The notes beneath the pieces were generated by a model that was given only the letters and a program-made list of their open reading frames with translations, was not told the origin of the DNA and did no database searches. Position numbers and translations under genes: made by a program. Source: Amoebophrya sp. A120 (lineage: Eukaryota; Protista; Dinoflagellata). From it: a DNA stretch of 64,000 nucleotides. Below, piece by piece: positions 140-61,870 of the stretch; the first letter of the stretch is position 1, and every line of letters begins with the position of its first letter. Location: the NCBI GenBank assembly GCA_905178155.1, contig CAJINV010000010.1, positions 2,872,587 to 2,936,586 on the forward strand. Direction: 5' to 3'.

Positions 140-3100
140 TCACAACCCGTCCTCCGAGAACCGCATCTCCCGTGGTTGTTTATTTCTCTGGTTGCTTCGG
201 TTGGAAGACGGGACTGGTTCTCCTCCCTTTGGTATCCTGTGGAAAAGTATCGTATTCGTAGTAATTGCATAAATGCATTCCAAGTTTCTTCCTCAAGGTG
301 AATCAGCATTACAAATTCAATTTGTAATGCTGGGCTAATTTGTAATGCAATTTATACTAGTACGATGCTTTTGCATTGCATATTTGGCGTCAGCCCGCTC
401 GGCGTGTTCATCATCGTCGACGGCATCAACCCGCCTGGCTGATTCGCACCAGCACCACCGTAGATACCACCCGTAGAAGTCCCCCGCTTGTTTTTGTTCT
501 GCCAGATGCAGACGCCAACCAGCAAGAAAACCGCGAAGGAAACCAGGGCGACGAAAAAGTTCCAGAGCGACCTGGTGCTGATGAGCGGGACAGACGGCCA
601 GTGGTTGGAGGAAGAGGTTGTAGATCTTCTCTTGTCGCTACTTGTACTACCGGTAGAAGCGATGTCAATATCGTCCTCCAGTGGCGCGCCGATTTGGTCG
701 TGGAACGGCGACGGCTTTTGCTCCTCTTGGGGTCGTTCTTGATCAGCTGGTGAAGCCCCGACCTCGTCTGGTTGGAGGGACGTGGCGGCCGTCTTCGTCT
801 TCCCGTGTCTTTTCTTTGAGACATTCTTCACGGTCTTCGTCGCACTGCTCTTCGTGTTGGTCACCACCGGAGCATCCGTCGTCGGCAGAGAGTCCTGCGC
901 CAATTCCTTCTCGTGCGGCTTCGGCGTCCAGTCCTTCGGGGCGAATTCCAAACCCCCCTCCGTGGCGAAGTACCAACCCCACGTGATTTCGTCCGGGAGG
1001 CCGAGGTGTCGGGCTTTCGGATGGTCCGCGAAGTTGAAGGGCTTGTCGTTTCCAACAACGGATGGCCCGTTGATCGCCAACACGTTCATGTCCGTGACCA
1101 TCTGACTGGAAACCACCTTGGAATCGCAGCACCCCACGAGATGCTTCATGCCGAACTCGTTCAAGTCCGGGCGGGAGCAGATGGCCTGGCCGTACCCGAT
1201 GTGTTGTTATGAATCGCAAAAGCATCGCGCTAGTAGAAATTGCATATACAAATTTTCTCAGCATGAAAAATTGAATTTGTCATGCTGTTTTACCTTGGAA
1301 AGCAAATTTGTCACGCATGACTGCAATTAGTACGAGTGCGATATTTTTGCAGTGCATAGTTGTTCCTCCCCGTTGATGATTTCCGTTTCCTTTGCCCGGC
1401 GCATCAGCTGCTTCATGTCCTATCATATGTAAAAACGTCCCCACCCGATACTAGTCAAGATGGGAATCTAGCAACACAGATCTCTAAGTTTTGGGCGCTG
1501 CGCATGACAAGTTTCCCGCTGCAGTGTAGTGCTGGTTGGCAAGGGAAGCCGCATGAGAAAGCCGCTTTCTCATCGTGTTTACAGCATTACAAAATCCCAA
1601 ATACGATTGGAAACGCCTGTCATGGGGATGCGCATCGCAAATGTTCCGGTCGTGGCAAATCTGCATGACAACTCTGGGGCGGGGACGTTTTTACTCAGGA
1701 TATGTCCTCGACAGAATTCACGTTCTTCTGCTGCTCCGCGAACACCCGGTAGCGGGGGTAGCGGATGTAGGTCTGCGGGTCGGGGGTTTGGCCGACGGCT
1801 TTTTGGGAAGAATCGAAGAAGGGTTCGTTGAAGCTGGCCCAGAAGGTTTGGTCTTGGAGGGTCGAGGTCATGTCGCGCCACTCCGAGGAGACGGGCGAGG
1901 TTTCCAGCACCATGAAGGTGAACGGAGCGAGGTGGGCTGAGAGGATTGATTTAGAGGATTTGGGTCGTTTGCTTGACAATAAGCATCAGAAATAAAAACT
2001 CGTAACCAGAGACAGAGCAAAAAAAAAAGAAACGTTGTCATGCGCGAACGTACATAAGACCGTAGTTCTGTCATGCACCATTAGCACATCAATTATACCT
2101 GGATCCGGCCGGTTCCGAAACAGTTCGTAGTCCAACAACATCCACTGCGAATTGTAGGCACCCGTCAAGATCGTGTTTTTCGGGTTCGAAAAGTGTCGCA
2201 TCCATTCAAAGCCGTTCTTCGCCAATCTGGTCGCGACCATGATGTGCACGTAATCCGGCACGTGCTTCTTCTCCCGGTTGACGTAAGCCGCCGTGCCCCA
2301 GTCCGGTCCAGACCCCCCGAGCGAGGTTTCCGCAATCCCCAATTGCGTCTCCTTCGTGATCATGAAGTCATCGGTAGAAGAAATGGCCCCCGGGTAGGAG
2401 GAAAAGGAGATCTGCTTCGCCTCGACCTCGCAGAAGGGGAAATCGTACACTTTCCACACACGGTTCATCTCGCTGAAATCTTCCCAGGAGGAATGTCAAA
2501 TGCAAATATGTCTGGGTCTGGAAGATTGCTAGATTTGTCATGCATGTTTTGTAATGGCCCATGATGCCTGTAATGCATGGTCCAGCATCTTCACAGGTTT
2601 TTCGATGGCTTCCTGATGCCTCTTCCGCATGCGAAATGCCTTCGCCGCGTAGCACAAACTGGGCTCCTCCTACTGGTCACGCAATACAGATTTTTTCAGA
2701 ATCCAAAGACAGCATCACAGGTTGCAACCATCCAGACGCAGACACATTTGCAATGCATACGGAATGCCCGAGGTAGATGTCATTGAATCTTCCCTGGTCA
2801 TCCTTGAGCAGTTTCGCGAGCGCGGAACAGCGACCCGGACGGTCTTCTCCCCGGGGGAAAAGCGGGTTTTGCAGTTGGGTGGAGGGCTGAAGTAGAGATT
2901 TGAAAGTACTTTGTATTGCGGACAACTGAAGCAGTAGCAGCAGCACTAGCAAGAATAAGAAACATCGCGCGAATTGCATTGCATGATAGGGGTCGGGTGT
3001 TCATCTGGTGCTTCTACAGCAACATTGCAACATATCACTTTACAAACGACTCTTCAAGAACAACGACCTGTCATGCAAAAGAAACAGTAAATCTAAAAAA

Positions 3101-4435
3101 TTATACCTGTTCGACAAAAGAACTCCCGCTTCTTGCGTACAATGCCTGCAAGTACTCCCCAATCGCACCGTCCGCGTTTAACCGCAGCAAGTCGCCCATC
3201 CGCAATTTCGGCTGTCCCTCCGGTACGACAGCGTTGTACCCGTTCAGAATGCCGTGCAGTTGCATGTGGATCAGGTAGGCCTGGTGGTTGTACCTGATAG
3301 TGATAGTAGTTTTCATGTGCAACTTCTTATATCTTATGTTCAAATTTGAATCAGAATCCTCGCAACTAGCACTCAACTCCCAATGGTGCACGACATCTTC
3401 CGCCCGTGATTCGAGATCGAGATTAGGCAGATAAAAATTTTGCAAAAACGTATCAACAAAAATCCAAAAAAGTACTTGCATTTCGCCTTTGTCTCCTCGT
3501 CCGCGTCTCTCAACGCGTCCACCGAGCAATCGTTTTGCGCCACATACGCGTCCTGCTGGGTCATGACTGCCAGTACCTCCTCACTCTTGTGCAAATCGTC
3601 CAAAATCCCGCTTTCCGCCTCCGTGTTGTACTGAAACTGCGCAATCTGCTCCATCATCAGCGCGCCCTCCAAGTACCCCGCGGCATACGCCTTCGTCATG
3701 TCCAGGGGCTTGGAGCCGACCAAATCGGTTTCGTCGCACTCGTCGGTTTTCACGGTTAAGTGGCTCCACCCGGTTTCCATCGCTTTGGGGTTGAAGCTCG
3801 CTTGTGCGAGAGGTTGGGACCCGGGGACCTTGGTGCTGGAAATCTCGATCGCATTATTGGCGGATTGGTGCGCGTACAGGGTGGTGGGGGTCTGTTTTGA
3901 AACGTGTTTGATGTTGGCTTAGGCTTTTTCTTTTTGTCATGCAAGTGCTTCACAATAACTTGCGTCAAGCTCCATAGTATCTGTAACTGTATCCACTGTG
4001 CGAAAAAAAGAGGAAAAATTGAACCGAAATCTTCATCTGTATCAACAGTACCGTGATTTGCGCTGGTCTTGTCCAGGTTGACGTGACTGCTGGAAAGGAT
4101 GATGCTGCAGAAGTTCCCGCCCCGGTGATTGCCTCGAGGGCGAGGAAAACTAAGGTTGCGAAGGTTGTTATCAAATGCAAATATGTCTGGGCCTGGAATA
4201 AACTTGTGATGCTAAAATGTGCATGATGGAAACACTTCCGAATGTAGCCCAGCATGACAACTTTTCGGAGCGCTTTCTCATAGGCAGTCCGCATGAGAAA
4301 CTACGTTTTTTCGTGACAAAAATGCGTACGGCTTTTGTCGGTTATGCAATACAGATTTTCCAGGAATGTAAAGCTAGCATTACAAGTTCCAACTTTCCAG
4401 ACCCAGACATTTTTGCAATCCATAGTTGTTTTCAT
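140..4435 (-). CDS. Phospholipase B-like (Ntn-hydrolase) protein, 10 exons, N-terminal signal peptide and C-terminal TM helix
   Basis: Manual splicing gives MKTTFATLVFLALEA...GWSHLTV...AYAAGYLEG...GRCSAL...DIYLGHSSWEDF...ISFSSYPGAISSTDDF...GAYNSQWMLLDY...AICSRPDLN...GCCDSKV, a TM helix, and a stop at 140-142. GT-AG introns at 1937-2098, 2887-3106, 3294-3475, 3892-4051, plus five TIR elements. Confidence 0.9.
233..382. mobile_element. Introner/MITE family B
   Basis: Ends TATCCTGTGGAAAAGTATCGTA / TACGATGCTTTTGCATTGCATA; flanking repeat TTTGG; removal gives GLTPKGGEP. Confidence 0.9.
1208..1358. mobile_element. Introner family B
   Basis: TIR, repeat GTTGT; removal gives GEEQHIGYGQAICSRPDLN. 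Confidence 0.9.
1421..1702. mobile_element. Introner family C
   Basis: TIR TATC...GTAAAAACGTCCCC, repeat TGTCC; removal gives NSVEDMKQLMR. Confidence 0.9.
2494..2759. mobile_element. Introner family A
   Basis: TIR containing TGTCTGGGTCTGGAAG; repeat AGGAA/CGGAA; removing 271 nt gives DIYLGHSSWEDF. Confidence 0.9.
4169..4424. mobile_element. Introner family A
   Basis: TIR, repeat GTTGT; lies in codons 3-4 of the gene (MKTTF). Confidence 0.9.
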
Positions 4436-6805: not shown

Positions 6806-7049
6806 TAAGCCAGGCTGTTCCATTTCTGCCCCGAGCCCGGGGTAGAAACGCAAGCCAAGCGCCCCATTGTAAGAAAAAAACCAAGAACCAAGCGCACCCC
6901 CCAACCCTATGCATGAGGCCATGGACCCTGGGTGCGCCCCTGCTTGCACAGGTAATGGAAGGCTTATCAAAATCCATCACACAACGGAGAGCAGAGTAAG
7001 ATAACAAGAGCAACCTCTTTGGACTGACACCTCAGCAAACAGGTAGTCA

Positions 7050-10805: not shown

Positions 10806-13800
10806 TCATAGCATCAACTTATCCCGTTGCCGCAAATTTCTTTTTACCTTTTCCTTATTCTCGAGAATCTTTTTCCTCTTCTCCGCTATGGATTGCAAAA
10901 GTGTCTGGGTCTGGAAGAATTGGAACTTGTCATGCGATTTCTGGAACAGGCAAAAATTTGTGTTGCATAAGCACCAAAAGCTTCCCAGTTCTTGCTACGC
11001 AAATGAGGAATTTCTCATGCGGGACAGACATCAGGAGGCCTGCGCAAAACCTGTAATGCTTTTGCGTGCAGTTGTAGAGACCAGTTGCGTGATCCAGAAG
11101 ATGCATGACAAGCCTAGCAATTTTGTTCCAGACCCAGACACTTTTGCGGTTGATATCCGCAGGAGAACTACCAACGTCTCGATCAGACTCCCCACTCGAG
11201 GACGTCAAAATCCCGCCACGTATGGGATTCTCAAACGTTACATTCTCAACTGTTACATGATTTGTCATGCAAATCTACCATGAACCACCAGACAATCAAG
11301 CCACCTCGCATGACAAATCCCCGAAGGGCTAAACAGCGCCTAAATCTGTGCCGGATTTATGATGCGAGAGTTGCAAGCTTGCCCCTTTCACTGTTGCGGT
11401 TCTTGCATCACAAATTCATGTAACAGTTCAGAATGTAACGTTTGAGAACGCCATACCACGTGACTTGTCGGAATTGATCGACAGTCTTGTCATCTCCGTC
11501 GCGACAAGGCGTTTAGTATTTTTGTTGTTTTTCACCCCAGAAGAGGAAGACGAGTCCTCGGCAAGTTCGTCGGAGAGGACCTCGTTATGATCTTTGTGGC
11601 CCCTGTTGTAGTCGCCATTTCTATCCGGACCCGCATGATCCCTGGTACTGCTCTCCCCTGCTCTTTCCGCACCAATATGTAGGCTGAAGGCTGACCTAGA
11701 GCTGCTGAAGATTTTCGTGATTTGCGCTGCTTCTCTCAGCTTCCTCTTCATCAGGGCGGCGGTGGAATTTGCCTTCAGGCTTTTTCCCTTCTTCACACCG
11801 TCCTGGAGATCCTCCTCGTCAGAACTGCTCCCATACTCGTAAATGACGTTCCCCTATCAGATGCAAATATGTCTGGGTTTGGAAGGATGCGAAGTTCGTC
11901 ATGCACCACATTTTGCATGACTCCTGATGTCTGTGATTCATGCCCTAGCATCACAGATTTTGTGAGGCCTTCCTGATGCCTAGACCGCATGATAGATGCC
12001 CTCTTGATGCCGTGGCAAAAACTGGACCTCTTTTGCAGCTGTTCATGCAATACAGATTTTTGTAGAATCTAGATGCAGCATCACAAGTTGCATCCTTCCA
12101 GACATCCAAGGATATTTGCAATGCATATCCCCTGTTCGTCCCTCGCGTAGGTCTGCATGCTCATCCAGTTCAAATACCGCGGTAAATCGGTTCTCCGACT
12201 CGACGAGATTTTCTCCTTTAGCCGCGTGATCTGTGAGCAGCAAAGCAACACCACCAAGCTGTAGACCAGGAAGATGAAAAAGCAAACGAGGAAGATTATC
12301 GCCAACACGGAAAGCTCCGCCATAAAGATGTCTACGCCGGACCGGGTAGCGGTAAAAGTTCCGTAGCAGTCAATCCGGTTGGGGTAGGGATCCACGCCAG
12401 TTTCAACATGAATATCATCTGAAGACGATGATGTTGAACTCAGCCCGGTCATCGGCCGCCCAAAGAGATTTTCCACCTCTTGATCCGAAAAGTCCAAAAT
12501 TCTGGTCAAAAACGCCGCGAAGGGAATCGGGTTCAACCGGATCAAATTCGGCCGGGCGCAGATCAGCTCGGACGTATCCACAGGAAAGTTCCAACCCGCA
12601 CACGTACAAATGTAGTTGTTTCTGCATGACAAAACTTGCCTTCAACCTTGGTCAGCATGACAAGTTGGAAACTCTAAGTTAGCGAAATTCGTCATGCATT
12701 TTGTGTATGTGCGGAAATTTTGTATTGCATAGGACACATGATCGGTGTACAGGTACATATTTTCGAGCCACTGCAACCGCCACTGGTCGATGAAGTAGGT
12801 TTTTGTAGTAGTGGCAGTCCCCGAAGATGAAGAAGAAGAAGAAGTACTAGATGCGCTTGTTCCGCCTCCTCCTGCTGTATTCGTATTCCCACCACTCCCG
12901 CCACCCGCGTCAATTGCGATGGAGATCCCGCCCTGCATGGGGCTCGCCGCTACCTCGGGAAAAACTTTTCGCGCATCCCTGTCGTTCTCGTTGAACAGTT
13001 GCTCCGAAATAACGATCTTCGCTGGGCCGATCAGTAGCACCGGTTTGTTGTGCGTGTCGGAGTTTTGGATGTTAATCACCAACTTCGCAGAGTTCGACTT
13101 TTTGTTCGGTAAATCGCAGGTGTATTCCCCCGCCTTGCAGTAGTACCGGGGGTCGGTCTATCCAGGAAAAAACACCCATCCCCATCCAATTTGTATTTGT
13201 CATGCAAAACATGCATAATTTGCAGTGTTTGTCATGCAAAAAATGAATGGGGATGGGTGTTTCTACCTGAATACGGTCCATTTACTGTCCACACACACGG
13301 AGCTCAGCTGCTGCTCACCAACGCGGTTTGCAGTGCGCTCGAAAATGCCCTCGCCGACAGGTCCTGCACCAAACGCGCCGCCGCCTCCGCGGCCCCCCGG
13401 TCCTCTTTCGGAGGCACCTCCACCGGTTTGTATTCCGTCACGTCTGCGCTGTCCCCGAACATTCGTCTTCGGCACGGCCGCGCGGATGAAATGCTTGTCA
13501 AGCAGGGCGGTGATGGACCTTTATCAAATGTAAAAGTGTCTGGGTCTGGAAGAGTGCATGTTTGTCATGCTTGTCTGGCATGACTGTCATGCACGTCACC
13601 CAAGAGCGCCATTTTTCTGTCATGCAGAAACGCAGTTTGTCATTCAGAATTATAGGCAAGAACACCTAGAAGCTCAGAAACTTGTCATGCTGAGCCAGCA
13701 CTTGCGGCCTCCTCATGATACGCCGCCCAGCATCACAAGTTTCCAGACCCAGACATTTTTACAATCCATAACCTTGGAGCATTAGCAATTTTTGCTGTAC

Positions 13801-16800
13801 CGTTCGTCCCCGGCCGCTGGGAGGATGACGACGACGGCCCGGAAGCAGCTGCAGAATTGCGATCGTTCTTCGGAAGAGCCGTCTCGTCGGAGGAAGATGC
13901 AGCAGCAGCTCCTGCTCCACCACCTGCTCCGCTAGAACTCATATCCGCACTATTAGTACTTCTATCCGCCCCAATATGGGAGTGTCAGAATCGAAATCGA
14001 CAAAATCGAAAAACTTGTAATGCATAAAATGTAGGGCACGCATGGCCTGTGTTGGGGAGCAGGCAAATGAGACCGATTGCAAGCCTGTTTAGAGGAGGGC
14101 GATGCGCTCCCAGAGTAGCATGACAGGAGCAGTCTTCTTTGTCTAAACAGCATGACAAACTGGATCTTGGTGCTCCCGAAATTTGTCATGCGCCACTTGA
14201 AAACTGAGGCTTCAACTGGTATCGATTTTGCGCATCACAAATTTTTCGATTTTGTCAATTTCGATTCTGACACTTGCATACCCGAATCTGCGGATCACAA
14301 TCGCCTTGCCCAGGTAATTATGGATTGCAAAAGTGTCTGGGTCTGGAAGAATGCAACTTGTGATGCGCATTTCAGAACACAGAAAAATCTCTCATGCATA
14401 GGTAGCAAAAGCTGCCCACTTTCTGTCACCAAAGTGGGGGATTTGTCATGCGGATTCGGCATTGGGGAAGCTTCTCGAAACCTGTGATGCTAGAGCTTCC
14501 ATGCCAGACCTTGTGTGTCATGCAAAAACAGCATGAATCTTCCAGACCCAGACATTTTTACATTTGATAGTAATTCAGAGGACAGCGGAGAGCCAGCATT
14601 TCCTCGAAAATTCCGTTCTGTTTGATCTTTTCCAATTGCAATCCATGCACCCAAATCTTTGACCACAGGGACAGATTCCTGAAGGGATGGTAAGCAGGGC
14701 TTGTAGTTGGAGTACTACTAGTACTTCCAGCGGCGGCCGTTGCAGCAGCCTGTTCTTTCACTGCGTCCAGCCCAGCGAGCGTTTTTACTTTCGATGAGAA
14801 AATGTTGATCAGATTGTAGTTGATGGTCAGTTCGTTCTCCTGTGAGAGTGCGCAACTCCTCCTCCCCCTCATTTGTATTGCATAAACAGCAATACCAGCG
14901 TCGGCAAGAATACAGGTTCTGCACGACAAATTCGGACAGGAGTGTAGTGCTATTTGGGCTGCCAGAACTTGTCATGCAACAAGTACCAAGAGCAGGAGAG
15001 GCGTAAATTAGGTATTCTGCATGACAAATGAGGGGGAGGGGGAGTTGTGCACTGTCATATCTCCCGATGGTAGAGCACTGTCCCATATTCCAGCAGTTTC
15101 AATGTTTGCTCGTCGCCGGAAAAAAAAGTTGAACTGTCCTCAGGTGAAAATGAATTTGAAATCATACTGGCGTTGAAATTCTTGTTCAGTTTCATGGCTG
15201 TGGCAATGTCCCCGCGGAACAAGTGCGGAAGGTGCCCACTGTCCTGCGCGTCGAGCTCCGGCGCCAAGCCGTAGGTGTCCGAAAAACCATATTTTTCTGA
15301 AAACGCGGCGCTCTCCTCATAGTAACCCTCGACGGCGTCTTGTAGAAGTGTGGTCGACCCACTATGGTCCTCTACAACTGCTGCTCCACCTGCTCGTCCG
15401 GACGAGGCACTGCTGCCTGGAGCAGTTTCGGCTAATATCTTCCCGCTGCTCTGCGTATAATACGGCGAGGACGCAAAGCTCTCCAACCCGCGAACGACGA
15501 ACTCCTCCCCTAGCCCGGTTCTACAGCTGTACTGGGCCGCGTTGCACATGTACTTTTGCTTGTAAAACTCCTCCTTATAGCAGTTCATCCGATCGAGCGA
15601 CAACTGCGGGCGGTACTCGTTATCGTGCGGGTCGATCGGGAAAAACAAAGAAGTTCGGACTGTCAACCTCTCCCCCTCCATGCCCCCGCAGAAAATTTCG
15701 CCGACCGTGCCGTCTTCCGTTGGATACATGTATTCCACGGACCGGCGAGATAACAGTCTGCTTTCCCGTATGCTGTGCAAAAGTATCGTACTCGTATTGC
15801 AATCGTGCACAGCAAATCTTTTCGTTATAGGTAAATCCGCATTATAAATTATTTCTTATGCTGAGAAAAAGAAAATTTGTGATGCATTTATACGAGTACG
15901 TATACTTTTGCAGTTCATATTCCGGAGAAATTCGTACTTCTCGTTCTTCCTTCTCGTCGTGCCAGCAGTACTAGATATGGAAGTGTCAGAATCGAAATTG
16001 GCAAAATCGAAAAACTTGTGATGCACAAAATCGATGTCAGTTGGAGCCTCAATTCCAAGTGGCGCATGACAAATTTGGGAAGCACCCAAATCCAGTCTGT
16101 CATGCTGTTTGGACAAAGAAGACTCCTCCTGTCATGCTGCTCGGGCAGCACATTGTATACCCCTAAACAGGCTTACAATCGGTCTCATTTGCCTGCCCCC
16201 CAATACAGGCCTTTGGTGTCCTACATTTTATGCATCACAAATTTTTCGATTTTGTCGATTTCGATCCTGACACATCCATACTAGAACCACCCGCAGTATT
16301 AGAGTTATCCCGCTTTATCGAAGATTCCGGCTTCTCCTCATCTGTGTAAGCGGTTCTCTGGTCCAAATCTTTGTATTCCGGCGGGATCCAGAGATCGAGA
16401 GAAAATGCCTGGGTTTGGACACCGGAAGCCTCGCCTAGTCCCGCGTGGTAGAGATGTGAGTAGCTCATGCCAACCACCATCCCCGGGGTCTTCTCCAGCG
16501 GATCAATCATCAAGTACAGCGCTTGGGGATTCATCAGCGCCTGCAGTGAGAGAATCTCCGTACAGATGTACATCCCCCGGCAGCCCCCGGATTTCCGTAA
16601 AGGGGTATTATGGTATGACAATTCTTGATCTTGGTCGAGGGGTTTCCGGACCTTATCGGGCTCGAAGTCCTGCTCTAGCAGGGTTGGGCTATCAATGTCG
16701 TCGGGCAGGAGTTGTTCTTTTTGTGCGGTGGTGAGACCACTGCTCGACGAGGGACGAACGTTTATTTCTTCCGCTTGGAGTTCTTGCTGTTGCTGGTTGC

Positions 16801-21399: not shown

Positions 21400-21659
21400 T
21401 TGGAGCGGTTTGTTCTGGCCAAAGGACATGAGTTCGGAGTACATGGCGAAATAGGGAGAGGAAGACCTGTAGTAGATTTTGGTGTCTTTTGATGTCTTTT
21501 AAAATAGAGTGGAGGCGGAAGGGTACTTAGGAAGACAGCTGAGACGAGGACTGCGCATGGTGGTGGAGTCGTAAATGAACTGGGCGGTCTACTTCCCATT
21601 CATTCAAAAACGTCAGCACAAACGCAATAAACCTCATTTTCAATTTTAGTGAACTACTG

Positions 21660-44049: not shown

Positions 44050-47000
44050 TTAAATCCTGGACGAGGCGCTTGCTGTGCTAAGTGAAGCACTAAAAGCCAC
44101 GGCTCTAATATTCAAAATATGAGTGCGGTCTGTTCTGCGGCGAAACGAAAAGCGAGCAGCGGAGGGAGCAACAAAAAGCATGCGTTTTCTGCGCTTCTTT
44201 GTCGACGTTGTGTGCGACCTACTGGGCGGACTCCATGCTCCATGGTTTATGTAGAATATGACGAGGTGACAACTGAAACTGTTAATGTCCTGTAGTACTG
44301 CAGATGAAGATCTGGAGCAAGTGGTTGAGGATCTCAAGATCCTTTTCCTTGTGCTGATCGTGCCGCTCATCTACCTCTCTCGTTGTGCTGCATTTTTGAG
44401 GACGCGCAGAGCTGTAGAAGCACGACCAAGGGCCGCTCCTGTACAACCGGGCGATTCGAACACATCGGCCACACTAAGCGACATGAAGATGTTGAAGTCG
44501 GGAAGATGCTGTAGATGAAGTAGATCATCAACGAAATCGCTGATCAAATCTTCAGCCTGTGTCTGTTTGTACGAAATTGTCGGCAGTAGAAGCACGTGGC
44601 GCCAGCAAGTTAACCGTGATGGTCATCCTCGGTTAACCAGGGTGAAGACGCGACCTGGTCTGTTGGTCACCAGCCTGAACAGCACACGGAAGCTTGTAGA
44701 GTTAGAGTCGTCCTCCGTTCTCGTCGTTCTACGTGCGCAAGCTTGTTAGATAGGACTGCCTTGCACGACCAGCGGCGGGCTTCCGTGATGATCAGCAGCT
44801 TGTCTACCAGCAGAGGTACTACCACGAGCGCTAGCCGTGCCTCCACTTTCGCCAATGCAGTCGTCGCTCCCCATGACTTCTACTTCATTCGTGTTCGACG
44901 TCCCACTCAAAATTTGTTGCAGCTGTCCATCATTCAGGATCCCGAAGGTTTTGGTCCGGTTTTCGCGACCGCTTGTTCTTGCAGCGCCTTGGCTTTTATC
45001 ACCCGCAGGCGGGCGGGGCACGGCGACGGCCCGCTGTGGACCAGCACCTCGTACTCCCTCGTCCGCACCAGCAGCACTCGTTACTTCGGCCTCCGGAAAA
45101 ACTCCAGTTGGACGACTCGCAAAGAGGACTGGAGCGCCCCCGTCGTCCTCACCAGTATACACGTAGCTCGTGTCCTCGTCGATTTCCTCGTTTTCGCCGG
45201 CCCATACCAATCTCAGCTCCTCCACCGAGAAACTTCTCTGTCCAAGCTATGCGAGTGAAATAAATCACCATCGAATTCTGATTCTCCCTCTCCGACTCTC
45301 AGGATATATATAAATATGGTAAAGAATAGCATGCTTACCCATACGGAACAAGAATCAAAGTGTTTCTCTACTTTCTGTTTACTTATATTCATTTTTCATC
45401 CACAAGATGAAGGTGCCGGGAAATACTGAATACCAAGGTGATTGTAACTCTCTGCACCGAAGCATACACTTTTCCAAGCGTCGAATTTTTGACTGTTCGT
45501 TGCCAAGGAGCGCGGGGCGATTTGGTAGGCTGCGGCTACTGATGCTCCGGGGGATGAGCCGGGGGCAGCATCTACCTGATCTTCGAACGGGTCCGGGACG
45601 GGCTGGAAGTAGATTGTGGAATTCTCTTTCACGATATCACAAGAAAAACAAGCGTTATTTCATCACAGATTGCAGTCATTCATCACAAATGTAGCTCATT
45701 ACGAATGCTATGGATGACAAATTCTGGCATGTTTTGTGATGCATGGCTGCATCACAGAAGATTCCGTATAACGTTATACATTTTTTCCTGTGGTACACGA
45801 TCTCGCGCAGTTTGCCCTTCCAGTAGTCGTGAATGTAGGTTTTTCGCATTGCTGTCAAGGTCACAGAGGGTGTCTTGATCATGGTCGAGTGGTCGGGAGG
45901 ATGCATGTTGTAGTTTCTGGGAAACTTAACCTTCAGCTCATCCTGGTAGAATTTCTTCAGTATCCAACTGGGAAGAAAACTAGTAGCATATCACATGTGT
46001 AGATGTTGCAAAAGTGAATACTAGAAGTACACAATGAAGAACTCTTTCTTGCACCATCATGTCTCGAGCAGAAAAATGCTACATGGGGTATCCCAGGGCA
46101 GATCTTTCTGTTTTTCTGCTGCTTTCTGCATTTTCTTTTTCCAAATGTGGAGATATGCTAGCTTTTTTCTTCTGTGCGATATTTAGTGCTATATTTGCGA
46201 AGCCCTCCGCTTTCCCAAAATCGTTCGCCTCGTACAGCTCCTCCGCTTTGAATTATGCCCTGCAAGAGGATGAAAAGCATCGCAATAGTGGAAACTGCAT
46301 GGCAAATTTTCCCAGCATGATGAAGTATTGAATTTGCAATGCGGATTTACGTCCAGAATAAGACCTGTAATGCATACCTGCAACTACAACGACAAGTACG
46401 ATACTTTTGCAATGCATGAGAATCCGTTAGCAACGATTCCCATGATGGCGGCGTATTCTTCGCAGTGGTCCGATAATCTCCTCACATGTTCAAAATCGGC
46501 CATCCTTCCCGTACTACTTGTGAGGAACGGGCGCAGCAGTGTCATCACTTGCGTCGCCTCGGTACGGTTATTTTCCGCAATGGACGCAAGCAGGGATTTT
46601 TTCAGCGTCGCCCGCCTTTCGCCGTTCAAGACCGCCTCCAGCGCGAGCACATTCATGCACAGGTGCGCGTATCCCAGCAGGGCGTCCAGCATTCGGGGGT
46701 CGATTTCGGGAAAAAGATCTTGGATCGCCTTCACCGACAGGCGGCCATTAAACTCGACCAGAAACTCGTAGAGCGCATGGGCCTCTTTCGCGTGCTGCAG
46801 TGCGGTCTCCAGGTCCTTTTGGTCGAAGAGTTTAGCAGATTGTATTGCCGTTTGCCCGGCAGAAGATGACCCAGCACCCGAAGCTGGGGAAGATGCCCAC
46901 CCGCCGGCGGCTCCAGACGCCGCGAATACAACTTCACCCATCCCTCCCTCCATTGCTGGCGGCCCGCCGCTGGCAGTGAAAGAGCTGCTAGAATATGTGG

Positions 47001-48755
47001 TGGATCCGGCAGCGACCTTCTGCACGGTGAAGTATCCTGTGCAAAAATATCGTACTCGTACCAATGCAAGTCTTGCATTACAAATCTCGTTTCCAAGGCA
47101 GTTCCGCATTACAAATTTTATTCTTCATGCTGAGGAAATTTGTAATGCATTTATACGAGTACGATACTTTTGCAGTTCATATGAAGCCACACACTGCGAG
47201 CTTCGCGGCTGCGATGGAGAGCCCCGTCATGATGATCTCGAAGTGGCAGATATCACAGGAAAAAGCGTTAGCGTCAACAGAACTTGTGAAGATGCAGGAA
47301 CGCATCAGGGAGGAATGGCGCCTGAATTTGTATTGCATGGCATGCATTCTAGGCAAAATCTGTCATGCATAGCTGCAATCTCTGAAAACCGTTATACGTT
47401 AACACTTTTTTGTTTGATAGCAGATGTCCCGGAAATTCGTGAAGGTTTTCGGGTCGATGGGTTTGCGCTTGGTCGAAAACCCCGAGGCCCAACGAAGTAT
47501 CCAAGTAGAAAAAAACCCACCGGGTTGCAATGCGGAGCGCAAATAAGCTCATCTTGATCAACTTGTCACGCCGTATGTCTATACAGCACCCTCTCTTCAT
47601 TCATGATGCATGACCATGATTATGATATTATTTGCTGCTGGTGGCGCATGATGACCATTAGCTTTTTCCTGTCATGATGTGAAAGAAATATTGTAAGTAG
47701 GCTACTTCTCGTCTCCAACTGTCACTACACTGTATTTTTTTTCCTGATGGATACTGAGCAAGGGAACTCTGCTGATTTCCACGACAGCACCAGAGGAGGA
47801 CGCGGTACTCGCGGTCTCCCTGTTTCTCCGGCCTGCCGATGTCGGAGATTCATCTGGATCCGGTAATGGACGGGGCGAGGGGACCACCTCACGCCGCTTA
47901 CCTCGGCTTGACCCAAGATCTGCGATACTGGTTGAGGACACTTGATTGGTAGCTTCACACAGGTCCATCAAGAAGTATAGCGTTCTCAAACGTTTACATT
48001 GATCACAGTGACGATGATTTCTTGGTGATTTGTCATGCAGATGAACCTGCGTCACATTCCGCGCTGCACGAGCATGATCAAGCTACTCCGCATGCTAAGT
48101 TCTTTCCAGTGCGCTCAACAAGATGGAAATTCGCCGCGAATTTGTCATGCAGGAAGCGCAAGGTTTTGGTTTTCCCTGTTGCGGTTTGTGATCTTCAATG
48201 TAGGAACAACGTTTGAGAACGCCATAAGGAAAACAGGTCCTGGAGATACGCATGGCCGTGGAACGCGATTTGCTCTGCATTCAAAAGTATGCATTGCGAA
48301 TATGATGTCTGAGCCTGGATCTGGAAGAATTTCTCATGCGGGGTAAGTAACTAGGCACTGATATGGAGCGTACTTCTCATCAAATAAACCTACGATGCTT
48401 TGCGAAGCCATCATCTATCTGTTCCAGGAAATGCATGACAGACAAAGTGGTCCTGGTCACTCTACTTCCAGACTTCTGGTGCCCAGGGCCAGACATAAAG
48501 AATAAAATTGTACTTGCATTTGATAGACAACGAAGCCTCCGGGTCACGCAGGGCCCGGACAAACTGCTTCCGGTTGGCCGAGGCCTTCAGCAGCGGCTGC
48601 TTGTTTCGAGCTGGAATGAAGTCATGAAAGGCGATCGCCGTGCTGGGCTCGGGAAACGGGACCGGGATGGGGTGAATTAAGTTGACCACGGGAGAAGCTG
48701 TGCCCGGGGTGGGGGTGGAGGTGGTCGCACTCGCACGACGACTAGCTGCTGACAT
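44050..48755 (-). CDS. Multi-exon helical protein, possibly BRO1/BROX-like; 3' part unresolved
   Basis: Frame is continuous across the elements at 48288, 47976 and 46254; the BRO1 resemblance is an impression only. Confidence 0.45.
46254..46418. mobile_element. Introner family B (diverged)
   Basis: TIR with a small insertion, repeat TGAAT/AGAAT; removal gives VANGFKAEEL. Confidence 0.8.
47033..47181. mobile_element. Introner family B
   Basis: TIR, repeat TGAAG. Confidence 0.9.
47976..48226. mobile_element. Introner family D (degenerate)
   Basis: TATAGCGTTCTCAAACGTT...AACGTTTGAGAACGCCATA; repeat AGAAG/AGGAA. Confidence 0.8.
48288..48525. mobile_element. Introner family A (degenerate)
   Basis: Interrupted family A TIRs; repeat no longer matches; removal of the element plus 5 nt gives EASLSNAEQ. 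Confidence 0.7.
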
Positions 48756-53778: not shown

Positions 53779-55836
53779 TCATAGCTTCGCGATGTATTTT
53801 GGCTGCGGCGCGTCCTTCCCTCTTGTCGTCTTCAACAGCTTGCTTGCTGCGAGGTAGGGTAGCCCCTTGCTCGAGAGCTCGATTGGATCAGAAATGTAAT
53901 TTGTGTAGAACATCTCGTCGCCCAGGTTCTCCTTGGCAATCAGCAGGCTGGACCCGAAGTTGTTGCGTAAAGCCTCCGGCTCACCAAAAAGCTCAGCCAG
54001 CGTTCGCGCAGCCGCGTAAAGATCGAATGGCGGCCCGAACTGCGGCGTGTAGTCGTGGAGCGGCGTGGAGCGGAAGTCATGACCGTCGGCCCGATACCGT
54101 AAGACTGGGTTAAAGAAAACAGCGGTTCCGGCAATGTCGCGGCTCAGATCGATGCCAAACATGACCGGCATCTTGTCATCTTCGACGGCAACAAAAGAGG
54201 ACAAGCCAAAATCAAAGAGCTTCACCTGTCGATACGTCGGATGCCCGCTGCTGATCACAAAGCCCATGTTCGACAATTTGATGTCGTTGTGCACAAAGCC
54301 GAGCGGGAAAAAGTCATCAAAAAAGTGTGCGTACAGGTTTTTCGCAAGATCTCCGGCGACAGACAAGGCCCCCTCAATTTGCTTGCTGCGTCGCTGTTCT
54401 TCGTCTTGGGACTCTTTCCCTTTGAGCTCAACCGCGATTTCCAGCTCTTCGACGAAAAATCCAAAAACCGTGTGAGTAGGGGTCAATGCGTATCCTACAG
54501 AAAAAAGGCCAAAAACGTAGCGCAACTGCAAAAAAAAATACAAGGCGAGTACAAGCTTCTTCGATAGTCTTCAACAAAAAATACAAAGAGGACTTTTCCG
54601 TCTTGTCTGCCTCACACTACTACACCCTCGACGCTCTCCTGTCGCAGGCATAGATTTTTCTGCCACTGCATTTTTGCATTGACATGAAATGCGACACGCT
54701 AGCTTTTTTCTGAAAGATACTTGGCCTGGTGAGACCACTTTCGCGTTCTGCAGTGCTGCGAGATGCTGGTCGTCGACATACTGCGACACCATAACTCGAT
54801 GCACGTGAGCAACCGAATCGGGAACAGCCGCTGTTAGTACCAAGTTAAACACGATTTCCGTGAAGGCTTCGTCTCCACACACATGAGGTTGAGGCGCCTG
54901 CTTTTGTAAATGCTCGGGCAGCGCATCGACAAAGTGCGGACACGCAATCATCTTCACAACTTGACGCTGCCTCGTCCCGTCTTGCTTTTGGTTCTTCAGT
55001 TCATACGCAGCTCCAAAAGTGCCCGCCCCCAATCGCTTGCCCAATGTCGAGTAAATTTTGCTTCCCGCGGTCTGCATATTCAGCCCGGGGTAATAAATAT
55101 ATTGCCCCTCGAAATCCGCAACGGTCTTGGCGTTGGCGTTCTTGTATCCTTGTAACTGGCTCACTTGTAACTGGCTCAGCTGACCTTCGACAAGTACGGA
55201 GTCAAGTTTTGTGTCCCAGAAGTTCAAACGAGCTTCCTTGCCGGCGACCCCAGGAGGCAAGCCTACTGGCCCTTTTGCAGCTTCGGCGGTAATCTTTTCA
55301 AAGGTTTTCGGCCCCTTTTTTTCCATCGACCTCAGTGTGTCCTTCGTTTTCTGCTTCATCACCGTATACAACTCGTACTCGCCTTGCTTCTTTCCCACCG
55401 AGGCACTGTCGAACAAAGCCTGCGTAAACCACTTTGCCTGGCCTGACCCACGATCACCGGCATGCCAACTTGCAACCCCTCGGGGGGCGGGCGCCATCAT
55501 GGCAAGGGGTAAGTGGCCCATGACCGCCGCTGGTGCTGATGCTCTTCCTTGAACAAACTGCCGAGGAACATTTGGCCCCGAATTCGAAGAACCGGACGGA
55601 TGAGAGCCATAAGCTGGTGGATATCCAGGTAAAGCAGTAGTACTTGCTCGAACAAGTTGTCGCTGCGACCCATCCGACGTTGGCAGCTGCACAGGCATCG
55701 ACACCGGACTCATTGTCCGTGGCGGGGCACTTCTGGGATCCAAGGGTTGAAAGGCTGCTGGATATCCATGTAGTACTAAACCACCAGCACTAGCCGACAT
55801 TGACCGCTGCAGAACCGGAGGCGGACGTGCTCCCAT
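53779..55836 (-). CDS. Divergent eukaryotic protein kinase, probable GT-AG intron at 54526-54720
   Basis: LGAGTFGAAY, VVKMI, FVHNDIKLSN, LFDFGL; start and end uncertain. Confidence 0.8.
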
Positions 55837-57479: not shown

Positions 57480-60459
57480 TTAGGATACCCTCGTGAAGCT
57501 TCTCGACGCGTTGCCGGGCTGCTCCTTCGGTGTGGGCACCATGAACGTGCTGATCCGGTGCGGCTGTGACACCCCCGGCGGACGACGGCGAGGACGACCC
57601 CGGCAGGGATGCCGACTCTGCGAAACTGGCTGCATCAGCGGCCGCATTGACATCATCCTCTGTAAAAGCGTACCCAATTATACCCGACCTGCTTTGTCAT
57701 GCAGAACAAGGTCCGGCATGCGCACGCGCACGCGCATGATTGGAAGACATTCTCACATGCGAGAATTCCAACCATGATTGCTTGTTTCCATTCATATTTG
57801 ACAAGGAAGATTTATTTGCATCCTCTACTCAGGAGACAGGCGTGGATCATTTGTGACTTAAACACACCCCACGACTTTTTGCTGTAAACATCGAAATCTG
57901 TGGTCATGGGAGTTTGTTATGTGGTGCGAAGACTCGCAGGAAGACGTCTCGACCTGCGCACAGGCAAACCTGCTATTTTGATGCCACCTCCATGGGCTGG
58001 ATAAGCTTTTTACGCAGCATAAGCGGCGGGCACAGGAGGAACGCGTTCATCTCCAACTGGACGCGAAGATTCAGATTCAGTCGTCGGCTTGAAGTCATTG
58101 TGATCATGAGGAGGATCTGCATCTTCAACCGGAGCAGGGAACAAGTCCGAACCCTTCTTCGCATGTCCCGTTTCATCACTGCCGTCCCCCTCGGTAGCAG
58201 CTTTGGAAGCAACACGAGGGTCGACATTCTTCTTGTGCAACAGTGAAGACGAGCCGTCGCTTTCAGTGGTTTTGCCCTGCGCAGCCGGCTCCGTGAGGGC
58301 AAACGAAGTTTTCGCGGTGTGAGCTATGGAAGACAAAATAACCCTCGTCGACGATCTGTACTTCTATCCAGAGAATACAAAAAAAAGAAGGCCTGTACAA
58401 GTTCAAATTCTAGTTGTTGTGCTTATAGTCCTACTACTTGCTACTTCTACTTTTTCTTACCGCGTGCTGGACGTCGTGGTAGCATTACAAACCATTCCAA
58501 ATTGCCATTGCGGCGTGTGAACAACAAGTTGTGGAAGGTGATTTTTCGATGGATACCCGTATTCGCATTGACGTCTTCAGCCGGTTCAGATGTAGTGCTA
58601 GTCGTAGTGGGATCAGACGTTTGTTCGTCAATCTGCCGGGTAGGAACGCTGGGACCACCCAAAGGATCCGTTCGTGTATCACAGTGTTCAAAAACTACTT
58701 CATCTATGTACAATATGTTGCCCGCCCACAGCACGAGTGATAAACCTCATCAATAACCACGACACTGTTGGGGTTCTCGACGTAACAGTAGTACGACTAA
58801 AAGTAAGTAGGGTAAAAAAGCTGTCACTTTGCTCGTTGTGCATCGTTTCTCCAAGGTAACAACGCAACAAAAGACTCGGACGCTATTCCAGATTAAACAC
58901 TGGAAATCCGTATAGACCACCTGCGACTGCTGAAGAAATCTTTATCAATAAATGCCAATCTAACTCGTTCGGGGGGCGACTGCATGATTAGAAGTAGTTG
59001 TAGTTTTTTTGATACTGTTTTTCCAAGAAGTCGGTCGCAGAGGTGGATGCTGGAATCGACGGGGAAGCGGAGGCAGTCGTAGCGGAGTTGTGTTATGCGA
59101 TCGAAAACCGGCGTGACCCCTAGTCCATCTAGGTCACAAGGCCCGCCACTTTGCAGACCTCAGGATGTGATGGCCCGTCGCACTATTTGGGAAAGCAAGA
59201 GTCCGCTGCTGCACAGAAACGGCATCATGACAAGAATAGCTGAGAACAGCAAAGATGAGCAAATATCATGCTGCAACTTGGTTGACCATCTCGGATCTCT
59301 TCATTACAAAGGACTAAAGCCGGTTTTCAAAATTCTGATACGGAATGATCCTGCTGTTGTTCCGAGAAATGCGATCCCTCCGACGTGTCCGACGCACCGC
59401 CACTCACCTGCGGCGCCACGTCACGACCTGCATCTTCAACATCGCCCGACTTCGAAGAAGATTGAGATTCCGAATTGAAGCTTTCCGAACGACCATCCCC
59501 CACGGTCGTTCCTGCCGCACCGGCTTCCGCTTTCGGCGTAGTTTTCTCGGTCTCCAAAAGGAAGCTGGTAGAGGGAGCAGCAGTGCCGGCACCAACATCC
59601 TCTCCAGGAATAAGAGGAGACGTCGAAGACGTCGCCACGTGCTGCCCGGCGGGGTCCGGCCCTTGCGGGGCTGGATTTTCGACGGTAGAAGAAGGTTTCG
59701 CGACGTCACCAAGAACAGCCCGGTCCTCGTCTGGCGCTGGGGCCGGCGACGGGTCAGCAACCTTCTCGTCGGTCTTGCCACTCGAGGTTGTGGTCGCCCC
59801 CGTTTGGAAGAACGAGGAAAACCAACCGGAGGCTTGTTGCAGCAGCCAGTGACGCTTGGCGCCCGGCCGGGGCGACAGGAACTTCCGCTCTTGTTGTTGT
59901 GGTTGCATCGGTGGGGCTGTGATCCAGTGCAAATATGGCGTCCTGGGGCTCGTCCCCTGGAAGTAGTAAATGAAAAACAAAAACTTGTGATGCTTGGCAG
60001 GCACCATTGCAGAAGTGCGGTGGTCACTTCTCTGATGAGGAAGTTGAGCCAGCATCACAAATTTATTCGCGTTCCAGAACGAGACCCCAAGTTTTCATAT
60101 TTGCAATGCATAGGAGCTGCGACAACAGCTGAGGTCTCCGTGCTGAAGGTCGCGCCGGCGATCAGAGAGTCAGGCTTGGCATTGGAGTTGTTTTCCCCAT
60201 TGTCGACAACGATGCCGCTTTTGACCAAAACGGCAGGCGGCGACGGCGTACCACGATGCGCAGCTGCAACATGAAGTTCATCTTGGCCTGGGGCTGGAGC
60301 AGCAGCATTCTCAACCTCACCAAGCCCGGCAACCTCCACGACGGCCACTGGCAAAAGAAACACGGATGGTCCACCAGCAGCGACGAGAGCAGAGGCCGCT
60401 TTGCCAATCTTATCCTGTGTAAAAAGCGTGCTGAGCTGCGCCCATCTGTACTTCTCCAT
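57480..60459 (-). CDS. Hypothetical multi-exon low-complexity protein
   Basis: Start MEKYRWAQL; frame joins across the 59918-60112 element (VAAPPMQP); downstream exons unresolved. Confidence 0.45.
59918..60112. mobile_element. Introner family H (single copy in this window)
   Basis: Imperfect TIR TGCAAATATG....TGGGG.CTCGT...CTGGAA, repeat GGGGC/GGAGC. Confidence 0.75.
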
Positions 60460-61445
60460 TGCTTATAGTAAGGTCTGGTCGATTTTTGCTTTTTTCGAAT
60501 TTCAATTTTTTGGAGGGGTAAGGGATTTTTTTTAACTATTACTTCGAAAACAGCGCTCTACTCGAACGCTGATATCATGCTCCTGCAGGTAGTGCAACTG
60601 CAAGTGCTGTAGCGGCACCAGTAAAATACACCTCCTCCTGGGCATCATGCATCCCTATTTTACACAGGATATCTGAATCGTCGAAACAGCGGCCGCGCGA
60701 GCATCTTTCGCGACTTCGCCGGTACGAAATAATCCGAGGATGAGCAACTAGCACTTGCTCCCGCCGTTGACGTTGTCATGGCGGCTGCGACTCTGCCTGC
60801 GTCGTTGGAAGATTTTCTTCGGCGCCAGAAGTAGGTCGTTGTGGTCCTGGAAAGGGTTTTATTGGATCTAGATATCAAGCAACTACACTCATATTGCAAA
60901 AGGCAAGCTCACCGTGAGAAGTTAGATTTTTACCGAAAAGTACGCAGCGAAACAACATGAAGTCTTCAATAGGCACTGATATACCCTCAGTCCTCGTCGC
61001 TTTTCGCACTACCAAGCCGCACCGCGGAGGCAGTGAAAAATTGTGAAAAAATCGATGGTTAAGACGCTTCGTTTGCTTCTTCTCGCGGTTCCCCTTCGCT
61101 GCGTTTCTTGAAGAGAAGCCGATTTCGTTGTGGTTTCGGTTTTTGTTTCGTTGTAGCCTGATTATTGCACAAGTTTTTATTTCATAGAAGGATATCCATG
61201 ATGTTGTTCTGCTCACTTTCCGATGAGCAAAGATACCCGGAAAACTAGCCCAGGTCAGGTATATAGATTTTTAAAAAACGCATTTCAACATCGACAACAA
61301 GCTGCTAGAGAAAGTGAGAAATAACATTTTTGACCACGTACGACATATGGGACTTGATTTTTCCAGCCAGAGACAGGTGGAAATAAGTCCCCACGTGGTG
61401 GGCACCACCACCGGCACTCGTCAAACAGCGAAAATATGTAGACAG

Positions 61446-61870
61446 TACCGTTTGTTGTTCGTCCTATCCTCTAGCAAGTAGAGCTCGAAGACAGTGAAAA
61501 GCTCCGCACTTTCCGATTTTATGGAGTTCTCAAATGTTACATTCTCAACTGTTACATGAGTTTGTATATGCAAGACTGGCAAAAGTGAAAGGAGGAAGAT
61601 TGCGCCTTTTGCATTACAAGTTTGGCGCAGATTTAGATGCTGTTTAGCCCTTCCGAAATTTGTCATGCGAAGCAGCTCGATCATCTGCCGGCTGAAGGTG
61701 CTTTTGCATGACAAATTCATGTAACAGTTGAGAATGTAACGTTTGGGAACGCCATAGATTTTGAAGAAGTTCTCGACTCTGTCCTTCTTCGCTGCGATTC
61801 TGGGAGAGAAACAACCGAGTTTTTCGCTTTGGTTTTCGTTTCACCGCTGGCTCGTCGTTGTTGAGCAAAA
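61446..61870 (-). CDS. Exon pair of an unresolved gene, probably extending toward the window end
   Basis: Removing the family D element gives ...ESRTSSKSESAELFTVFELYLLEDR. Confidence 0.4.
61520..61756. mobile_element. Introner family D
   Basis: Long TIR as at 11221, repeat GATTT. Confidence 0.9.

What the first reader, a model, noticed from the sequence alone, without database searches (positions are those of the whole stretch)
233..61756. About 49 MITE-like elements in at least 8 families act as non-GT-AG introns
Seen: nearly every element has TIRs, TAT...ATA termini and a 5-bp flanking direct repeat, and sits inside a coding region. Deleting element plus one repeat rebuilds conserved motifs ([31 protein letters not shown], the ARF core). 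Repeat sequences and codon phase vary, most junctions offer no GT-AG, and many elements carry stops or frameshifts. Known: introners with inverted and direct repeats and non-canonical ends are reported from Amoebophrya, and to my knowledge the removal mechanism is unresolved. Inference: a structure-guided excision system runs alongside normal spliceosomal introns in the same genes.
Basis: partly seen in the sequence, partly recalled or inferred. Interest (0 to 1): 0.92.

Follow-up and report, generated by a model that had tools for sequence, protein, structure and literature searches.

The report
Amoebophrya introners with hidden donor signal
These are the already published transposon-like introns of the marine parasite Amoebophrya A120: the 14 copies covered by likely-RNA contigs are cut out exactly although they lack GT-AG ends, and their end letters are conserved only on the gene's sense strand, in a pattern that likely marks a hidden splice donor read by a relaxed spliceosome.

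Summary
The window holds 48 hairpin-ended elements with a 5-bp flanking repeat (33 exact; 42 with TAT...ATA) plus 3 with decayed repeats, in 8 multi-copy families. One exon is 100% identical to a protein named Amoebophrya sp. A120, whose TAT-ended introners Farhat et al. 2021 described. In likely-RNA contigs 14 of 14 covered elements are skipped as element+5 nt, alongside 4 GT-AG introns; the DNA-like run keeps them.

Two damaged repeats bracket the cut at 1 nt before and 4 nt after the element, if the register is fixed. Earlier unreviewed notes of this scan reported the same 1+4 rule on other pieces of this genome.

Added here, from 372 coding copies (window plus related contigs): the sense-strand first T never varies (0 versus 12 changes at the mirror position, p=0.0004). 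Under the 1+4 cut it is the +2 U of an N-U-A-U donor, matching this genome's GUAU donors. Copies that lost the repeat mostly keep the +5 frame (10 of 12). A relaxed U2 spliceosome measuring from the element ends is likely (0.6). No lariat or circle data exist here.

The parts
233..382 (-). introner, family B (~150 nt), phospholipase B-like gene
   Evidence: published A120 protein P0003 matches element+5 removal
1208..1358 (-). introner, family B
1421..1702 (-). introner, family C (~280 nt)
2494..2759 (-). introner, family A (~260 nt); repeat mismatch at sense position 5 shows at most 4 repeat letters come from the upstream copy
4169..4424 (-). introner, family A, just after the start codon
   Evidence: N-terminus of P0003
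10887..11155 (-). introner, family A
11221..11455 (-). introner, family H (~236 nt)
11855..12127 (-). introner, family A
13159..13273 (-). introner, family D (~110 nt)
13522..13770 (-). introner, family A; an equivalent GT-AG register exists
13975..14280 (-). introner, family F (~307 nt), 1 repeat mismatch
14319..14569 (-). introner, family A
14841..15059 (-). introner, family G (~220 nt)
15769..15919 (-). introner, family B, 1 repeat mismatch
15976..16280 (-). introner, family F
17749..18010 (-). introner, family A, in an ARF-like GTPase gene (label recalled from motifs)
20058..20212 (-). introner, family B, helicase gene 1; skipped in likely-RNA contig
   Evidence: length arithmetic together with 20508
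20508..20770 (-). introner, family A; skipped in likely-RNA contig
   Evidence: length arithmetic together with 20058
20917..21073 (-). introner, family B; RNA joint skips 162 = 157+5 and shows at least 4 repeat letters come from the upstream copy
21242..21383 (-). introner, family B; RNA skip 147
21467..21693 (-). ordinary GT-AG intron, starts GTAT
21922..22030 (-). introner, family D; RNA skip 114
22273..22551 (-). introner, family C; RNA skip 284
23137..23286 (-). ordinary GT-AG intron, starts GTAT
23414..23564 (-). introner, family B; RNA skip 156
23629..23897 (-). introner, family A; RNA skip 274
24371..24630 (-). introner, family A; RNA skip 265
24695..24882 (-). introner, singleton; RNA skip 193; spanned unbroken by a DNA-like contig
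25364..25577 (-). ordinary GT-AG intron
25770..25942 (-). ordinary GT-AG intron
29865..30125 (-). introner, family A, helicase gene 2; RNA skip 266
30173..30322 (-). introner, family B, 2 repeat mismatches; RNA skip 155, upstream letters kept
30404..30667 (-). introner, family A; RNA skip 269
31830..31987 (-). introner, family B; RNA skip 163 (from contig pieces)
   Evidence: table 8
35060..35218 (-). introner, family B
35411..35642 (-). introner, family G
35993..36154 (-). introner, family B
36235..36495 (-). introner, family A
36555..36763 (-). introner, family G
37436..37577 (-). introner, family B; an equivalent GT-AG register exists
37660..37967 (-). introner, family F
38060..38207 (-). 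introner, family B
39431..39749 (-). introner, family F
39997..40166 (-). introner, family E (~165 nt), 2 repeat mismatches
40221..40472 (-). introner, family A; an equivalent GC-AG register exists
42153..42314 (-). introner, family B, nucleoside hydrolase gene, 2 repeat mismatches
45635..45795 (-). introner, family E
46254..46418 (.). family B element; frame not resolved; the only window copy whose presumed sense start is not T
47033..47181 (-). introner, family B
47251..47419 (-). introner, family E (weak strand margin)
47976..48226 (-). introner, family-H-like singleton, 2 repeat mismatches
54491..54719 (-). element with decayed repeat; element+5 keeps the kinase-like frame
59921..60112 (-). 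element with decayed repeat; best frame is element+5
60411..60671 (.). element with decayed repeat; frame not resolved
61520..61756 (.). family H element, exact repeat; coding context not resolved

Best explanation
These are non-autonomous transposon-like elements with paired TAT...ATA ends and a 5-bp target repeat that are missing, with exactly five extra letters, from likely-RNA contigs, and they are likely removed by the host's U2-type spliceosome at a fixed register read from the element's own ends. Shown: the anatomy, the element+5 skip in 14 of 14 covered copies, both orientations in host genes, and strand-asymmetric conservation of the end letters. Inferred from two copies, assuming one register: the intron is 1 nt + element + 4 nt, so every intron begins N-U-A-U (mostly), which matches the +2 to +4 letters of this genome's ordinary GUAU donors. 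Inferred and untested: the 3' cut needs no AG and is measured 4 nt past the element end, either by the terminal hairpin or from the first A of the final ATA (position -7) acting as branch point. Because both ends carry the same signal in mirror image and one repeat copy leaves with the intron, an insertion anywhere and in either direction would leave the protein unchanged.
For: RNA skips equal element+5 at 11 joints plus one from contig pieces and two by length. The spliced model is 3708 nt, equal to the contig length, and 9 of its 10 element junctions align without a gap to the A25 orthologue. Register: the RNA joint at 20917 needs at least 4 upstream repeat letters. The published A120 protein at 2494 needs at most 4, and 46 of 46 homologues with the motif have S or T there, not the A that 5 letters would give. 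Asymmetry in 372 coding copies, detected with a symmetric filter on the end letters: first T 0 versus 12 changes at the mirror position (Fisher p=0.0004); second letter 1 versus 6 (p=0.12); third letter 16 versus 4 (p=0.011). At pairs 2 and 3 the tolerated changes are mostly A.C mismatches, not G.U wobbles. Predicted GT-AG introns have +3 A 76% and +4 T 47% (n=123). Farhat Table S4 lists only NT- starts among the top A120 non-canonical ends and only TT- for A25. The paper finds nearly all spliceosome proteins, with U1 and snRNP27 undetected. Loss of SNRNP27K is linked to +4 U donors (PMC10581693 abstract). Copies with 3 or more repeat mismatches keep the +5 frame in 10 of 12.
Against: The register rests on two different copies, one bracket each. 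Codon-likeness of mismatched repeat letters gave no signal at any position. There is no enrichment of G at +1 or AG at the 3' end among young copies, although a spliceosome normally needs both. The -7 A is not invariant (4 of 372 changed). Predicted GT-AG introns show no fixed A at -7 (33%, background level), and that predictor recovered only 2 of 4 known introns. At pair 1, eight of the twelve 3' changes are U.G wobbles, which pairing alone could explain. Window element 46254 starts with C on its presumed sense strand (frame unresolved). The pooled asymmetry test was defined after seeing the data. The runs are labelled RNA only by guess, and 34 of 48 elements had no RNA joint.
Confidence: 0.6

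Rival explanations
1. A separate, non-spliceosomal RNA system (endonuclease plus ligase, or a second divergent machine, as proposed for euglenid nonconventional introns) recognises the terminal hairpin and cuts at fixed offsets.
For: No GT or AG requirement. The ends pair in the predicted fold in 278 of 391 copies. U1 was not found in A120. Euglenid introns of similar build leave as circles, not lariats (PMC11282704 passage). A 1+4 staggered cut around a stem suits a structure-reading nuclease.
Against: Letter identity, not pairing, is conserved at the ends and mimics the host's own donor. There is no overall G.U over A.C excess (327 versus 301) and no sense-strand folding advantage (203 of 391, p=0.10); one of five sub-ranges was nominally positive. 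A symmetric hairpin gives this test little power.
Confidence: 0.25
2. The elements are self-splicing or protein-assisted ribozymes, with the A at -7 as a group-II-like bulged branch nucleotide.
For: The first A of ATA is more conserved than its mirror letter. A branch A 7-8 nt from the 3' end is a group II feature (recalled).
Against: Unrelated families of 109-320 nt share only their ends and a short motif, and work in either orientation. No common catalytic fold is apparent. Rfam was not searched.
Confidence: 0.04
3. The skip is guided by the 5-bp repeat itself, either in the cell or as a reverse-transcriptase template-switch artefact across a hairpin.
For: A hairpin flanked by a short direct repeat is the classic artefact setting (recalled). 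Only assembled contigs, not direct RNA reads, were available.
Against: Ten consecutive elements are absent from one contig and restore a long frame matching the A25 orthologue. 33 of 48 would shift the frame if retained. Damaged repeats are skipped exactly, and decayed repeats keep the +5 frame.
Confidence: 0.05
4. The elements are excised from DNA (IES-like or transposase-driven somatic excision) before transcription.
For: They have transposon anatomy, and precise removal of element plus one repeat copy would restore the target.
Against: Contigs of the DNA-like run cross exon-element borders unbroken at about 23-31x and span 20917 and 24695 whole. Conservation follows the transcribed strand. 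The mRNA mixes letters from both repeat copies. The joint table for that run was truncated, so rare DNA excision is not excluded.
Confidence: 0.04

Closest known systems
Introner elements / non-canonical introns of Amoebophrya sp. A120 (Farhat et al. 2021, PMC7789003; seen: abstract, passages, sections 10, 11, 12, 16, supplement legends S19-S25 and rows of Tables S4, S5, S7; figures not seen)
   Same: Same organism by protein identity; ends TAT + 7 nt + three or more A; direct repeat of 3-5 nt (5 bp in the Fig. S19 legend); RNA-supported non-GT-AG junctions; many families; genes mixing both intron types.
   Different: The paper calls splice positions relative to the hairpin variable and unknown. 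Here the removed length is always element+5, the register brackets to 1+4, and the end letters are conserved in a strand-dependent way.
Amoebophrya A120 introners in Gozashti et al. 2025 (PMC12130899, passages) and TSD-recruiting introners in Gozashti et al. 2022 (PMC9860276, passages)
   Same: DNA-transposon-derived introns; part of the target repeat is taken into the intron; one A120 family has integrase-like homology inside TIRs.
   Different: The examples read there recruit GT/GY and AG from the element or target. These need neither. Their datasets were not read.
Euglenid and diplonemid nonconventional introns (PMC11282704 passages; PMC12621601 abstract)
   Same: Paired ends, TSD-like repeats, no GT-AG, coexistence with U2 introns, unknown mechanism.
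   Different: Different lineage. Euglenid ones are shown to leave as circles, which is untested here. These carry a donor-like N-U-A start.
Fritillaria borealis non-canonical introns (PMC13326754 start of abstract and passages; PMC11282704 passage)
   Same: MITE-derived non-GT-AG introns handled by a modified U2 spliceosome: the precedent for the favoured mechanism.
   Different: U1 is kept there and the ends follow AG-AN patterns. Here U1 is reported undetected and both end dinucleotides vary.
IS3EU/GingerRoot DNA transposons (PMC10045372, passages)
   Same: TA..TA termini with terminal inverted repeats.
   Different: Their TSD is usually 6 bp; here it is strictly 5 bp. No transposase was found here.

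Membership tests
Amoebophrya A120 introner elements (Farhat 2021) | Host is Amoebophrya A120 | tested here: met
   window:2100-2486 is 100% identical over 129 aa to P0003, named Amoebophrya sp. A120; the A25 protein is 68%
Amoebophrya A120 introner elements (Farhat 2021) | Inverted repeats starting TAT, about 7 variable letters, then three or more A | tested here: met
   96 window termini: T/A/T 94 of 96 each; A at positions 11-14 in 75-89 of 96; families F and H lack the A run
Amoebophrya A120 introner elements (Farhat 2021) | 3-5 nt direct repeat at the exon/intron border | tested here: met
   Repeat-blind detection: 369 of 491 exact and 81 with one mismatch at 5 bp in related loci; no other length stands out
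Amoebophrya A120 introner elements (Farhat 2021) | Absent from transcripts with non-GT-AG ends | tested here: met
   14 of 14 covered elements skipped; the runs are RNA by guess, supported by their skipping of 4 GT-AG introns
Amoebophrya A120 introner elements (Farhat 2021) | Identity to the published family sequences | not testable with these tools
   Family sequences were not among the supplement passages seen
MITE (non-autonomous TIR transposon) | Short, TIRs, TSD, multi-copy | tested here: met
MITE (non-autonomous TIR transposon) | Cognate transposase | tested here: inconclusive
   None in 37 window ORFs by Pfam; the long element in L073 has a 415-aa ORF with no Pfam or Atlas hit
IS3EU/GingerRoot | TA..TA termini | tested here: met
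IS3EU/GingerRoot | 6-bp TSD | tested here: not met
   0 of 491 exact at 6 bp
U2-type spliceosomal intron | GT/GC...AG ends | tested here: not met
   3 of 51 have any equivalent register; none under 1+4
U2-type spliceosomal intron | Invariant U at +2 and purine at +3 | tested here: met
   Under the inferred 1+4 register: 372 of 372 and 371 of 372
U2-type spliceosomal intron | Lariat with branch adenosine; dependence on U2/U6 | not testable with these tools
   Only contigs of this strain were available; the raw reads laid (X9) hit only element sequence
Euglenid-type nonconventional intron | Excision as full-length circles | not testable with these tools
   No excised-intron data

The most novel reading that the evidence does not exclude
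Amoebophrya A120 runs a U1-less spliceosome that needs only U-A at +2/+3 and has abandoned the 3' AG, placing the second cut by ruler 7 nt after a branch adenosine supplied by the transposon's own terminal ATA. One palindromic trinucleotide would serve as both donor and branch point, so any TA-ended transposon making a 5-bp target repeat becomes a perfect intron in either orientation at any site.
Probability: 0.3. Interest if true: 0.85.

Novelty: already known. Interest (0 to 1): 0.48.

Why it matters
About 65% of RNA-supported A120 introns are non-canonical, and the discovery paper left their boundaries and mechanism open. A fixed 1+4 register with an invariant +2 U turns that open question into sharp tests: predicted lariat branch position, single-letter minigene changes, and spliceosome inhibition. 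If the spliceosome does this, it shows that the 3' AG and +1 G, usually taken as near-universal, can be dropped. It would also explain how tens of thousands of insertions became harmless. The elements themselves are not new.

Tried and rejected
1. The shared motif GCATnACA as a branch point: rejected. It is dense in elements (137 in 11,001 nt) and absent from 10,148 nt of RNA-supported exon, but it is mirror-symmetric, present in 310 sense versus 307 antisense of 391 copies. It fits a DNA-binding site better.
2. A fixed A at -7 in ordinary introns: 3 of 4 RNA-confirmed introns have it by eye, but 123 predicted ones do not.
3. Enrichment of G at +1 or AG at the 3' end: none in young copies. AG at the 1+4 position occurs in 3 of 10 decayed versus 19 of 256 other copies (p=0.04), which is too few to use.
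4. Codon-phase bias (173/110/96) as support for the register: explained by symmetric target composition (p=0.22).
5. Codon-likeness or stop tests of mismatched repeat letters: uninformative, with one stop case at position 2 that fits the register.
6. Strand-dependent columns within five families: only 3 columns at p<0.01, none shared.
7. Transposase: none found.
8. Viral collection: 0 matches to the family A end.
9. RNA: no RNA cover was listed for 11150-17100 or 34141-40800. Raw-read run X9 did not match exons. No holder is on record as RNA.
10. Nucleoside hydrolase searches gave no close relative, so the 42153 mismatch stayed untested.
11. No whole genome is held. No orthologous empty site was found among the loci.
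12. Neighbour-based strand assignment was noisier and was replaced by per-element calls, which set aside 109 of 481 copies as not confidently coding.


Full report
Observation. A scan for paired ends with a flanking 5-bp repeat, blind to TAT, gave 32 exact-repeat hits in the window, 30 starting with TAT. Ten shuffles gave 0-2 such hits and no TAT start. Completing the set by terminal similarity gave 48 elements (33 exact repeats, 11 with one mismatch, 4 with two; 42 with both TAT and ATA) and 3 with decayed repeats. They form 8 multi-copy families (46 elements) and 5 singletons. Host genes lie on the minus strand: 47 of 51 confident calls, with a model trained on this window. They include a phospholipase B-like gene, two helicases, a nucleoside hydrolase and a kinase-like gene. 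If retained, 33 of 48 elements would shift the frame. Only 3 of 51 have an equivalent GT/GC-AG register.

Identity. One exon is 100% identical over 129 aa to a protein named Amoebophrya sp. A120. Another has its best hit, 79%, in strain A25. Farhat et al. 2021 (PMC7789003) describe A120 introner ends as TAT, seven variable letters and at least three A, with 3-5 nt direct repeats. They say the border position relative to the hairpin is variable or unknown. The window's termini match. The phenomenon is therefore published for this organism.

Removal. Of 11 runs listed, none that holds the stretch is on record as RNA. X3 and X4 behave as RNA: they skip GT-AG introns and show almost no depth over two stretches that X1 covers. 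In X3, 11 joints skip exactly element+5, a twelfth follows from contig pieces, and four GT-AG introns are skipped in the same contigs; 3 further joints were not shown. Elements 20058 and 20508 together account for the remaining 428 nt. The spliced model has the contig's length, 3708 nt, and aligns to the A25 orthologue without a gap at 9 of 10 element junctions. The published A120 protein agrees with element+5 removal at five more elements. X1 contigs cross exon-element borders unbroken and span two elements whole, so abundant DNA excision is unlikely; its joint table was truncated. 34 of 48 elements had no RNA joint.

Register. At 20917 the RNA keeps at least four letters of the upstream repeat copy. 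22273 and 30173 agree, with weaker bounds. At 2494 the published protein needs the fifth letter from the downstream copy, and 46 of 46 homologues with the motif have S or T there; 3 of 49 lacked the motif. If there is one register, the intron is 1 nt + element + 4 nt. I had the 0-1 nt bracket and this hypothesis in my notes before reading earlier unreviewed notes that state the 1+4 rule for other pieces of this genome. The second bracket was obtained afterwards.

Larger sample. A scan of metagenome contigs returned 139 loci; 137 records, 828 kb with overlaps, reached the script. They carry the same families, 71-95% identical to window copies for 45 of 48 elements. Repeat-blind detection found 491 unique elements: 369 with an exact 5-bp repeat, 81 with one mismatch, and 0 hits in 593 kb of shuffles. 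Strand calls agreed for 147 of 150 close neighbours. Elements sit in both orientations (family A 96 versus 70).

Strand asymmetry. With the end letters left out of scoring apart from a symmetric filter, 372 of 481 copies were confidently coding. The sense-strand first T changed in 0, its mirror in 12 (p=0.0004). The second letter changed in 1 versus 6 (p=0.12), and the third in 16 versus 4 (p=0.011). Transposition should constrain both ends alike, so the bias points to an RNA-level signal. Pairing does not explain pairs 2 and 3, where A.C mismatches (5 and 12) outnumber wobbles (0 and 3). It could partly explain pair 1, where 8 of 12 changes are U.G. Under 1+4 the fixed T and A are +2 and +3. 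Predicted ordinary introns have +3 A 76% and +4 T 47% (n=123; the predictor recovered 2 of 4 known introns). Table S4 of the paper lists NT- starts for all nine top A120 classes and TT- for all nine A25 classes, though mapper ambiguity may contribute. The paper reports snRNP27 undetected, and its loss is associated with +4 U donors in yeasts (PMC10581693 abstract). The relatively conserved first A of the final ATA falls at -7 and may be a branch point, but 4 of 372 copies lack it and ordinary introns show no fixed A there.

The repeat looks dispensable after insertion. The best frame is element+5 (mod 3) in 185 of 188 copies with exact repeats, 58 of 58 with one mismatch, 13 of 14 with two and 10 of 12 with three or more. 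No overall RNA-pairing asymmetry was found. A shared inward-pointing motif is symmetric and fits a transposase site. The termini resemble IS3EU/GingerRoot (TA..TA), but the repeat is 5 bp, not 6. No transposase was found.

Literature. Four searches showed no paper stating a fixed register or this asymmetry. The figures of Farhat et al. (Fig. 3, S19-S23), the Gozashti datasets and Roy et al. 2023 were not seen and may bear on it. PMC12005148 (passages) says two other Amoebophrya strains use mainly GT-AG.

Verdict. The feature is real and already known. The likely mechanism is a relaxed U2 spliceosome cutting at a fixed register from the element ends (0.6), against a separate hairpin-reading system (0.25). 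The value lies in the testable refinements.

Noticed in passing
window 12609-12731, 38310-38544, 48288-48525, 58365-58555: Four more decayed elements with little or no repeat left. 58365 would read GT...AG exactly at the 1+4 register, a possible conversion into an ordinary intron.
   Followed up: partly
L073:476-2934: 2459-nt element with family A ends and an exact 5-bp repeat, holding a 415-aa ORF with no Pfam or Atlas hit; possibly a nested insertion or a larger relative.
   Followed up: partly
window 4500-10800: Element-free stretch with minus-strand ORFs of 741 aa (7498-9720) and 301 aa (5902-6804) without Pfam hits, and a cluster of short repeated words around 7050-7260.
   Followed up: partly
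window 48800-53800: Element-free, partly GC-rich stretch with no recognised gene; a near-perfect hairpin at about 52150-52210 and a 30-nt direct repeat at 51231/51531.
   Followed up: no
window, whole: All confidently called genes lie on the minus strand, the unidirectional clustering reported for Amoebophrya.
   Followed up: yes
window 2036, 3069, 3935, 25846, 35863, 38920, 39109 and others: The element motif also occurs in ordinary introns and intergenic DNA (19 sites outside catalogued elements), suggesting many GT-AG introns may be old element relics.
   Followed up: partly
loci L001-L139: Three abundant families in the related contigs (about 320, 212 and 206 nt) had no window member under my clustering.
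   Followed up: no
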